A stretch of DNA of 64,000 bases from Candidatus Thalassarchaeaceae archaeon (GTDB lineage Archaea > Thermoplasmatota > Poseidoniia > Poseidoniales > Thalassarchaeaceae): assembly GCA_030747485.1 (NCBI GenBank), contig JASLKP010000001.1, positions 137,971 to 201,970 on the forward strand. The letters are read 5' to 3'. Positions 1,449 to 1,467 of the stretch are shown in pieces; position 1 is the first letter of the stretch, and each line of letters starts with the position of its first letter. The translations under genes were made by a program, and so were the position numbers. The notes beneath the pieces are model-generated. The model did not search any database. It had not been told where the DNA came from and saw only the letters and a list, made by a program, of their open reading frames with translations.

Positions 1449-1467
1449 CCCCGGCCGTAGGCCGGGG
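1449..1467. repeat. GC-rich hairpin CCCCGGCC-GTA-GGCCGGGG (copy of the GTA-triloop hairpin family)
   Basis: Perfect 8-bp stem with a 3-nt loop, read directly from the sequence. It lies in the 62-nt divergent spacer between GH57 (start 1406, minus) and malQ, and it ends 1 nt before the malQ ATG at 1469. Confidence 0.7.

What the first reader, a model, noticed from the sequence alone, without database searches (positions are those of the whole stretch)
1449..1467. Family of GC-rich hairpins with a conserved C-GTA-G triloop in very different genomic contexts
At least five hairpins share the loop GTA closed by C-G pairs on GC-rich stems of 7-13 bp, in DNA of otherwise moderate GC. They are at 1449-1467 (CCCCGGCC-GTA-GGCCGGGG) and 12992-13018 (the reverse strand reads ..CCCCGCC-GTA-GGCGGGG..). 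Further copies are at 13780-13800 (imperfect), 27923-27951 (13-bp stem) and 58196-58212 (CGCGCCC-GTA-GGGCGCG). A sixth, at 49909-49933, has an ATA/TAT loop. GNA triloops closed by C-G are known to be exceptionally stable mini-hairpins. The stems differ while the loop is conserved, which argues for selection on structure and loop rather than recent copying. Simple terminator function cannot explain every context. Two copies sit in divergent promoter spacers (GH57/malQ and aroD/gyrB), two are embedded in ORF ends, and only two are in classic post-stop positions. They could be REP-like elements, binding sites for a protein, RNA-stability or processing signals, or transcription insulators in a genome with almost no intergenic space.
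Basis: seen in the sequence. Interest (0 to 1): 0.6.

Follow-up and report, generated by a model that had tools for sequence, protein, structure and literature searches.

The report
Conserved TA-tipped palindromes between archaeal genes
This marine Group II archaeon and its relatives keep about a hundred short, perfectly paired, GC-rich DNA hairpins with a three-base tip containing TA at fixed places between genes, mostly next to promoters; they are real and conserved, they are not ordinary terminators or known mobile repeats, and their function is still open.

Summary
Five of the six listed hairpins are perfect palindromes at the stated coordinates. The genome (a 1.41-Mb Poseidoniales/MGII MAG) holds 97 such hairpins with arms of at least 7 bp, against 0.7 expected.

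The rule is wider than "C-GTA-G". The tip is RTA on one strand and TAY on the other (GTA/TAC 57, ATA/TAT 40), usually framed by CC/GG, on 6-8 bp arms of about 75% GC.

Location:
- 56 lie in co-directional gaps and 27 in divergent gaps.
- None lie in convergent gaps.
- They are not followed by T-runs more often than background.

Across 23 species of the genus the hairpins stay at the same sites. Their arms are nearly invariant and show occasional two-sided compensatory changes. There are no G·T wobbles. At some sites the tip flips (GTA to TAC) repeatedly.

The gyrB-leader copy persists across genera of the family. The family as a whole is patchy across the order.

I found no RAYT gene, no shared arm sequence and no Rfam match.

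My best reading is strand-symmetric boundary hairpins of transcription units, kept by selection and perfected by template switching. The mechanism is inferred.

The scan noted the same family earlier in another MGII genome (e1-5214842).

The parts
1449..1467 (.). Palindrome CCCCGGCC-GTA-GGCCGGGG. It lies in the divergent spacer between the GH57 gene (-) and the GH77/malQ gene (+). It ends 1 nt before the malQ ATG at 1469.
   Evidence: Sequence; Pfam. Ten genus genomes keep CCCGGCC-NNN-GGCCGGG here. The loops are GAA x6, GTA, GCA, CGA and AAA, and there is one two-sided arm change.
1432..1442 (.). Conserved TCAAAGGTTTT block, 26-36 nt from both divergent start codons. It is probably the shared TATA-like box region.
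   Evidence: Alignment of orthologous spacers. Genome-wide, TT[CG]AA[AG] peaks at -32..-29 from start codons.
12992..13018 (.). Palindrome TCATTCCCCGCC-TAC-GGCGGGGAATGA. It overlaps the last codons and the TGA stop of the HAD-hydrolase gene (-). It lies 31 nt before the ATG of the next gene (-).
   Evidence: It is kept in about 20 genus genomes. The arms show four covarying states (GCC/GGC, ACC/GGT, GTC/GAC, ATC/GAT). The loops on the + strand are TAC, TAT, TGT, TTC and TTT.
27923..27951 (-). Palindrome with 13-bp arms, GGGCCGGAACCCC-GTA-GGGGTTCCGGCCC. On the - strand it lies 48 nt after a stop codon and is followed by T6 (27916-27921). This copy looks like a terminator.
   Evidence: The orthologs keep the arms with covariation (GGAACCCC, GGACCCCC, GGGCCCCC; GGG/GGA at the base) and keep the T-run.
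43713..43729 (.). Palindrome GGAACAC-ATA-GTGTTCC in a divergent spacer.
   Evidence: Genome scan with context table.
49909..49933 (+). Palindrome TTGAGGACCCC-TAT-GGGGTCCTCAA. It lies 27 nt before the gyrB ATG in the aroD/gyrB divergent spacer. It probably sits at the 5' end of the gyrB leader.
   Evidence: All genus genomes keep it; the + strand loops are TAT x10, TAC x7, TAA x3 and ATA x1, with one compensatory pair. Two other genera of the family keep it with covarying inner arms. Three genomes of the other family lack it.
49873..49878 (+). TTCAAT, a TATA-like box candidate 36 nt upstream of the gyrB hairpin.
   Evidence: 'gaatcATTCAATAACC' is conserved in all genus orthologs and in G036.
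58196..58212 (.). Palindrome CGCGCCC-GTA-GGGCGCG. It lies in the divergent spacer between a 1077-aa gene (-, real start near 58149) and the LTD-protein gene (+, 58321).
   Evidence: The arms are 100% identical in 22 distinct orthologous sequences, while the flanks are 63-74% identical. The loops are TAC x11, GTA x7, TAT x3 and TTC x1, so the tip has flipped repeatedly.
17628..17644 (.). CGATACC-ATA-GGTATCG inside the giant surface-protein gene. Its status is uncertain and it may be chance.
   Evidence: Its conservation was not checked.
13779..13800 (-). Imperfect hairpin that the finding listed. It is not a family member. It is the middle hairpin of a conserved three-hairpin cluster (13744-13820) with tetraloops.
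   Evidence: The orthologs read GGGGCGCC-cgaa-GGCGCCCC, flanked by two further hairpins with cgaa or ttcg loops.

Best explanation
What it is (shown). This is a lineage-specific family of about 100-170 short, perfect, GC-rich DNA palindromes per genome. Arms are mostly 7-8 bp and about 75% GC, with CC/GG next to the tip. The centre is 3 nt and contains TA: RTA on one strand and TAY on the other. Copies are kept at fixed positions in the promoter-bearing gaps of a very compact archaeal genome. Each site has its own arm sequence, which is nearly frozen across species. The tip drifts by point mutation and, at some sites, inverts.

How it most likely works (inferred). The palindromes are strand-symmetric boundary elements of transcription units. 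Wherever the DNA is transcribed or unwound, either strand folds into the same very stable hairpin. The role would depend on local position:
- It caps mRNA ends. The 27923 copy sits at a 3' end with a T-run, and the gyrB copy sits at the 5' end of a leader.
- It shields the adjacent promoter from polymerases or unwinding coming from the neighbouring unit.

Perfect pairing on both strands and the tip flips are maintained or produced by template switching between the arms during replication. Selection retains the elements and their GC-rich arms.
For: - Enrichment is 97 observed against 0.7 expected. Only the 3-nt centre with TA stands out.
- Location: 56 copies in co-directional gaps, 27 in divergent gaps and 0 in convergent gaps, while 17 other hairpins lie in convergent gaps. 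Most of the 'genic' copies are within 70 nt of the longest-ORF start.
- TT[CG]AA[AG] boxes are enriched 12-19 nt upstream of the hairpins and 4-23 nt downstream.
- T-runs follow 9 of 121 copies, against 4.8% background.
- Strand symmetry: only 9 one-mismatch variants exist and none is a G·T wobble. The tip flips at 58196 (GTA x7, TAC x11) and in 3 of about 21 sites conserved between G000 and G014.
- Retention: the hairpin is present in 20-23 of 23 genus species at four sites. The 58196 arms are 100% identical against 63-74% for the flanks. Two-sided arm changes occur at five or more sites. The gyrB copy is kept across three genera with covarying inner arms.
- One copy has a conserved T6 after it. 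The gyrB copy lies about 36 nt after a conserved box and before a Shine-Dalgarno sequence.
- Template switching as the keeper of perfect inverted repeats is described in PMC5941160 and PMC7202029.
Against: - There is no transcript-end data.
- Copies between two divergent promoters would be transcribed only by upstream-antisense transcription, which is not shown here.
- Archaeal termination is known to rely on oligo-T, not on hairpins (established knowledge).
- The TA preference of the tip is not explained by this model.
- Copies within 14 nt of a start codon are biased to RTA in the sense strand (29 against 12; ATG only 21 against 5). Three sites keep one orientation. So some copies are not fully strand-symmetric.
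- Gene calls are my own ORF-based calls. Start codons are approximate.
Confidence: 0.4

Rival explanations
1. DNA-level topological element. The palindromes extrude as small cruciforms or hairpins in the negatively supercoiled DNA behind RNA polymerase. They buffer or sense supercoiling at promoters, including the gyrase promoter itself.
For: - The design fits a structure needed on both strands: perfect pairing, no wobble, flips tolerated, minimal 3-nt tip, and a centre with the weakly stacked TA step.
- Copies lie upstream of or over promoters and between divergent promoters. They are never in convergent gaps, where positive supercoils accumulate.
- The organism has gyrase, and one deeply conserved copy precedes gyrB.
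Against: - Arms of 6-8 bp (114 of 121 copies) are short for stable extrusion at ordinary superhelical density. GC-rich flanks of the centre slow extrusion (established knowledge of cruciform energetics).
- The gyrB, 27923 and 12992 copies keep one tip orientation and lie in transcribed DNA.
- No direct structural data exist.
Confidence: 0.2
2. Docking sites for a lineage-specific protein that recognises the hairpin or palindrome shape with its CC-(TA+N)-GG apex. Candidates are a structure-specific nucleoid, insulator or RNA-binding protein.
For: - The arm length is narrow (7-8 bp, total 17-19 bp), the apex is CC/GG in 89 of 121 copies, and the tip is constrained.
- Phyletic spread is patchy. 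The CCCRTAGGG proxy is strong in genus g1 and in g5 of the other family, weaker in g11, g15 and part of g3, and at background in g2, g4, g6, g19, g10, g12 and g14. This would fit gain or loss of a factor.
- Positions just upstream of the box or over the start site are typical positions of archaeal regulators.
Against: - At conserved sites the tip drifts to TTC, TTT, TGT, GAA and AAA, and becomes 4-5 nt in some species. That is soft for a recognition element.
- No candidate protein was found. MutS presence does not track the pattern, and no Y1 transposase was found.
Confidence: 0.13
3. Functionless by-products. Template switching during replication perfects and perpetuates chance inverted repeats, and these are simply tolerated in non-coding DNA.
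For: - Perfect arms, two-sided 'compensatory' changes and tip inversion are the known signatures of quasi-palindrome correction (PMC5941160, PMC7202029).
- The scan saw the same signatures in a cyanobacterium (e1-5267860).
- Contexts here are heterogeneous.
Against: - The genome is 93-94% coding, yet copies persist at the same site in 20-23 of 23 species whose coding DNA is only about 67-70% identical.
- Arms evolve far more slowly than their flanks.
- Arms are 75% GC in a 47% GC genome.
- The tip is restricted to TA types.
- Copies are absent from convergent gaps.
- Related genera have none.
Confidence: 0.12
4. One reading: strand-specific C-GNA-G mini-hairpins, extra-stable in DNA or RNA, acting as one kind of RNA or ssDNA signal.
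For: - GTA closed by C-G is a GNA loop.
- The malQ site keeps G-N-A on the sense strand in 8 of 10 species.
- Start-adjacent copies favour RTA in the sense strand.
Against: - ATA/TAT (40 copies) is not GNA.
- GAA, GCA and GGA are not enriched like GTA.
- Both orientations are equally common genome-wide (30 TAC against 27 GTA).
- The tip flips at orthologous sites.
Confidence: 0.05
5. REP/REPIN-type mobile repeats spread by a RAYT (Y1 HUH) transposase.
For: The elements are extragenic, GC-rich and numerous. The string GTAG occurs, in the tip plus the closing base.
Against: - Copies share no arm sequence.
- GTAG is not a 5' tag and is replaced by CTAC, ATAG or CTAT.
- Copies sit at orthologous sites rather than at variable insertion sites.
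- PF01797 has no match in the genome, which is 72% complete.
Confidence: 0.03

Closest known systems
Bacterial REP/BIME extragenic palindromes (and REPIN/RAYT systems; PMC2817692, PMC3733652, PMC12306157)
   Same: Both are short, GC-rich, hairpin-forming elements found in intergenic DNA at about 100 or more copies. REPs are proposed to act in mRNA stabilisation, termination and DNA topology.
   Different: - REPs are homologous copies with a consensus and a 5' GTAG or CGTC tag. They are imperfect, lie mostly 3' of genes, and are linked to a RAYT gene.
- Here the arms are unrelated between sites and perfect.
- Here the only shared feature is the CC-(TA+N)-GG apex.
- Here the sites are orthologous and promoter-side.
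- No RAYT gene was found.
Perfect short inverted repeats maintained by template switching (Ripley model; Lavi et al. 2018, PMC5941160; Lovett lab, PMC7202029)
   Same: Both show perfect arms, conservation of the exact repeat at orthologous loci, two-sided arm changes and inversion of the centre.
   Different: That work describes a general mutational process for repeats of any spacer length in Proteobacteria. Here there is one sharply defined class (3-nt centre with TA, GC clamp, 7-8 bp arms) with a location rule and a patchy distribution among archaeal lineages.
Intrinsic terminators (bacterial hairpin plus U-tract) and archaeal oligo-T terminators
   Same: The copy at 27923-27951 is a GC-rich hairpin followed by T6, 48 nt after a stop codon, and is conserved.
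   Different: - Only 9 of 121 copies have a T-run (background 4.8%).
- No copy lies between convergent genes.
- 27 copies lie between divergent genes.
d(C-GNA-G) DNA mini-hairpins (Hirao and co-workers; recalled from my own knowledge, not read here)
   Same: The C-GTA-G tip on one strand fits the GNA rule.
   Different: Half of the family (ATA/TAT) and the opposite strand (TAC) do not fit it. Other GNA loops are not enriched.
   Same: The element class and the conclusion are the same: perfect palindromes in promoter-bearing gaps, not a strand-specific RNA regulon, function open.
   Different: This is independent DNA. Additions here are the genus-wide site alignments, the flip counts, the order-wide proxy map and the family-wide gyrB leader copy.

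Membership tests
REP/REPIN (RAYT-mobilised) | Copies share a consensus sequence | tested here: not met
   The 121 copies have unrelated arms. Only the apex is shared.
REP/REPIN (RAYT-mobilised) | Conserved GTAG or CGTC tetranucleotide at the 5' end of the palindrome | tested here: not met
   The flank profile shows no conserved tag. GTAG occurs only as tip plus closing base, in one of four tip variants.
REP/REPIN (RAYT-mobilised) | A RAYT / Y1 transposase gene in the genome | tested here: not met
   PF01797 has no match in G000. The genome is only 72% complete.
REP/REPIN (RAYT-mobilised) | Extragenic location at high copy number | tested here: met
   83 of 121 copies lie in called gaps, and most of the rest lie at ORF 5' ends.
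Hairpin-plus-T-tract terminators | T-run directly after the hairpin | tested here: not met
   9 of 121 copies have one, against 4.8% of random intergenic positions. The 27923 copy is an exception.
Hairpin-plus-T-tract terminators | Position downstream of genes, including convergent pairs | tested here: not met
   0 copies lie in convergent gaps and 27 lie in divergent gaps.
C-GNA-G mini-hairpins | Loop G-N-A with any N, closed by C-G, on the folding strand | tested here: not met
   Counts are GTA 27, GAA 7, GGA 3 and GCA about 1, while ATA has 22, TAC 30 and TAT 18. Nearest-neighbour energy models give no loop-specific term, so they could not rank the loops.
Template-switch-maintained perfect inverted repeats | Perfect arms kept at orthologous loci, two-sided arm changes, inverted centres | tested here: met
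   This shows the pattern only. The process itself is not testable with these tools.
Any Rfam RNA family | Match at gathering score | tested here: not met
   Only two tRNAs match in the window.
Structured RNA under RNA-type covariation | G·U intermediates tolerated on the transcribed strand | tested here: not met
   There are no G·T pairs among the 9 one-mismatch variants. In the orthologous arm sets, the listed arm variants show only Watson-Crick pairs. The single T·G case is the malQ site of G014.

The most novel reading that the evidence does not exclude
In gyrase-bearing marine Group II archaea, TA-centred GC-clamped palindromes form a previously undescribed promoter-architecture layer. 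They would be DNA-level hairpin or cruciform switches, or docking sites for an unknown structure-specific protein. They sit either just upstream of the TATA-like box or over the start site. They would insulate or couple neighbouring promoters through local supercoiling, with a family-wide copy in front of gyrB acting in gyrase homeostasis.
Probability: 0.15. Interest if true: 0.8.

Novelty: new variant of a known kind. Interest (0 to 1): 0.55.

Why it matters
Poseidoniales are among the most abundant archaea in the surface ocean. They are uncultured, so their gene regulation is known only from sequence. A class of about 100 or more conserved non-coding elements per genome, placed at promoters and unit boundaries, is a concrete and testable handle on how transcription units are separated in a genome with almost no spacer. 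The tip flips and two-sided arm changes also give an unusually clean natural record of template switching in an archaeon. That record warns that 'compensatory' changes in perfect palindromes do not by themselves prove an RNA structure.

Tried and rejected
The Red Sea mdRNA-seq paper with MGII start sites (PMC5069720) holds nothing on these hairpins. Its euryarchaeal table is cut off in the stored supplement.
- Flank profile in the RTA orientation. No conserved flanking motif appears.
- Loop-specific stability from nearest-neighbour models. Both the RNA and the DNA parameter sets give identical energies for all C-NNN-G triloops, so this was uninformative.
- RAYT/Y1 transposase. Not found. Hjc is present, but it is universal in archaea.
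- MutS as a correlate of hairpin density. MutS is present in hairpin-rich g1 and g5 and also in hairpin-poor g4, g6 and g19, so it gives no signal.
- Shine-Dalgarno and box frequencies of genes behind hairpins. They differ little from other long-gap genes.
- Shine-Dalgarno sequestration by the 3' arm. Only about 8 of 29 start-adjacent copies carry an SD-like tetramer in the arm (my count).
- Literature searches for MGII or Poseidoniales palindromes or hairpins. Nothing relevant was found.

Full report
**Source and identity.** The window is C11:137971-201970 of a 1.41-Mb, 69-contig, 46.6% GC assembly that is 72% complete. Earlier notes of the scan on the same genome identify it as a Marine Group II archaeon (Poseidoniales). 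I did not test this independently. Archaeal-type gene content and the relatives found by the genome search fit it.

**Check of the observation.** All six places read as described. A genome-wide scan for perfect stems showed that triloop hairpins are dominated by four tips closed by C-G. With arms of at least 7 bp the counts are C-TAC-G 30, C-GTA-G 27, C-ATA-G 22 and C-TAT-G 18, which is 97 of 307.
- 3-4% of all such pentamers sit in a hairpin, against 0.09% overall.
- Second-order Markov simulations give 0.7 such hairpins per genome and 0.04 per window, against 97 and 7 observed.
- Among perfect inverted repeats with centres of 0-8 nt, only the 3-nt centre is in excess, and the excess is CC-[RTA/TAY]-GG.
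- Arms are 6-8 bp in 114 of 121 copies and 75% GC. In 89 of 121 copies the arms end in CC next to the tip.

A palindrome has the same arms on both strands, so only the tip tells the strands apart. The family motif is therefore a TA plus one more base at the centre, not GTA. TAA/TTA, GAA/TTC and AAA/TTT tips form a minor fringe.

**Where they lie.** I called genes with a simple ORF plus hexamer model. It gave about 1,086 genes and 93-94% coding. Stop codons are exact and start codons approximate.
- Of 121 copies with arms of at least 6 bp, 56 are in co-directional gaps, 27 in divergent gaps and none in convergent gaps.
- 38 are nominally genic, but about 23 of these are within 70 nt of the longest-ORF start and so probably lie upstream of the true start.
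- Convergent gaps are tiny here (median 0; 24 are at least 20 nt long). At the per-gap rate of the other gap types, about 4 copies would be expected, giving P(0) of about 0.01 by my arithmetic.
- Seventeen other hairpins do lie in convergent gaps. These are AT-rich palindromes spanning the two stop codons.
- T-runs follow 9 of 121 copies, against 4.8% of random intergenic positions.

As a class, the elements are therefore on the promoter side and are not terminators.

**Promoter context.**
- TT[CG]AA[AG] peaks at -32..-29 from start codons (47 against about 10 per bin). Classical TATA hexamers are almost absent.
- GGTG/GAGG/GGAG peaks at -12..-9.
- Many hairpins lie 4-23 nt upstream of such a box. 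A second group starts 12-19 nt downstream of one and ends 0-14 nt before an ATG. These enrichments are 1.7- to 2.5-fold, so they are modest.

**Comparison across species.** Species representatives of the same genus are only about 67-70% identical in coding DNA.
- *Site 58196.* CGCGCCC...GGGCGCG is identical in all 22 distinct orthologous sequences, while the flanks are 63-74% identical. The tip reads TAC x11, GTA x7, TAT x3 and TTC x1. Near-identical flanks carry opposite tips in G014 and G011, so the tip has inverted several times.
- *Site 49909.* TGAGGACCCC(C) arms occur in all genomes. The tips on the gyrB sense strand are TAT x10, TAC x7, TAA x3 and ATA x1. G013 has one two-sided change, GGGCCCC/GGGGCCC. 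The element persists in two other genera of the family with covarying inner arms (CTGAGGGTTCC-tac and CTGAGGGTTAT-ttac). It is missing in three genomes of the other family. A conserved ATTCAA box lies about 36 nt upstream, and a Shine-Dalgarno sequence lies between the hairpin and the ATG. This copy probably sits at the 5' end of the gyrB leader; this is an inference.
- *Site 12992.* The arms show four covarying states, and the tips are TAC, TAT, TGT, TTC and TTT. The hairpin overlaps the last codons and the stop codon of a HAD-hydrolase gene.
- *Site 27923.* The 13-bp arms covary, and T6 follows on the sense strand in all genomes.
- *Site 1449.* CCCGGCC arms occur in 10 genomes, and one genome has a two-sided change. 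The tips are GAA x6, GTA, GCA, CGA and AAA. The ATG of GH77/malQ follows after 1 nt. A conserved TCAAAGGTTTT block lies 26-36 nt from both divergent start codons.
- *G000 against 400 kb of G014.* About 21 of 27 comparable sites keep a hairpin. Three sites have flipped tips. Three sites have two-sided arm changes. One site carries a hairpin with different arms.
- *Site 13780.* This is not a member.

**Strand symmetry.** Only 9 one-mismatch variants exist, and none is a G·T wobble. Wobbles are also essentially absent from the orthologous sets. Together with the flips, this argues against a purely RNA-type structure evolving through G·U intermediates. It argues for a constraint or a correction process that sees both strands.

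Template switching between the arms is the known process that perfects inverted repeats and can invert their centres (PMC5941160, PMC7202029). It means that the two-sided changes are not proof of selection on their own. Selection is nevertheless indicated by four things: retention at fixed sites in a streamlined genome, arms far more conserved than their flanks, GC-rich arms in a 47% GC genome, and the restricted tip.

Symmetry is not complete. Copies within 14 nt of a start codon favour RTA in the sense strand (29 against 12; ATG only 21 against 5). Part of this bias could come from my start calling, because the RTA tip creates a TAG. Three sites also keep one orientation.

**Distribution.**
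- The same class is present in G014 of the same genus (17 copies per 400 kb).
- It is absent from 400 kb of G020 and 200 kb of family f2.
- As a proxy, I counted the 9-mer CCCRTAGGG against its reversed control in 201 genomes of the order. It is enriched in genus g1 (about 70 against 25) and in g5 of the other family (20-74 against 4-22). It is weaker in g11, g15 and part of g3. It is at background elsewhere.

**Comparison with known kinds.**
- It is REP-like only loosely.
- It is not an Rfam family.
- It does not follow the GNA rule.
- It is not a terminator as a class.
- It matches the pattern of template-switch-maintained inverted repeats, but as a sharply defined, located and lineage-restricted class.
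- The scan reached the same picture on another MGII genome (e1-5214842). I found no publication describing it.

**Mechanism.** I commit, at about 40%, to strand-symmetric boundary hairpins of transcription units. They would cap RNA ends and shield promoters, and would be self-perfected by template switching. The main rival is a DNA-level supercoiling element, at about 20%. A docking site for an unknown protein follows at about 13%, and a functionless by-product at about 12%. No step of the mechanism is shown directly. Transcript ends are the decisive missing data.

Noticed in passing
window 13744-13820: Three consecutive GC-rich hairpins with tetraloops lie in the 160-nt spacer after the giant surface-protein gene. 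In relatives they read CCCCACTCCGC-cgaa, GGGGCGCC-cgaa and GCCACC-ttcg. They are conserved with covariation across the genus. On the sense (-) strand two of the three tips read UUCG. This looks like an RNA-level 3' element or a small structured RNA.
   Followed up: partly
window 27957-27971: A second small hairpin, CTGCC-tcaag-GGCAG, lies between the stop codon and the big 27923 hairpin. It is conserved with compensatory changes (CCGTC/GACGG, CCATC/GATGG) in the genus.
   Followed up: partly
whole genome (G000): The TATA-like promoter box of this lineage appears to be TT[CG]AA[AG], itself nearly palindromic. It peaks at -32..-29 from start codons. Classical TTTAAA or TTTATA hexamers are almost absent upstream of genes. 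A strong GGTG/GAGG Shine-Dalgarno signal sits at -12..-9, especially in short co-directional gaps (52%).
   Followed up: partly
whole genome (G000), e.g. C3:33746-33771 and C11:175354-175375: Convergent genes mostly abut or overlap (median gap 0). Where a gap exists, AT-rich palindromes span the two stop codons (for example GATTTCTAA-N8-TTAGAAATC). This is a hairpin class different from the TA-tipped GC palindromes.
   Followed up: no
window 58213-58270: A non-coding block right after the 58196 hairpin (...CCCATTGAA...ACGGCCCGTAAATACCCCTCGGCG) is 75-84% identical across the genus. BLAST finds it as a separate match. It may hold promoter elements or a small RNA start.
   Followed up: no
order-wide: The MutS domain V family was not found in any sampled genome of three genera of the same family (g9 0/13, g12 0/9, g14 0/14). 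It is present in nearly all other Poseidoniales sampled.
   Followed up: no
G000 C11:101760-101776 (outside the window): One TA-tipped palindrome lies about 25 nt after a tRNA gene's 3' end. It is missing at the same place in G014.
   Followed up: no
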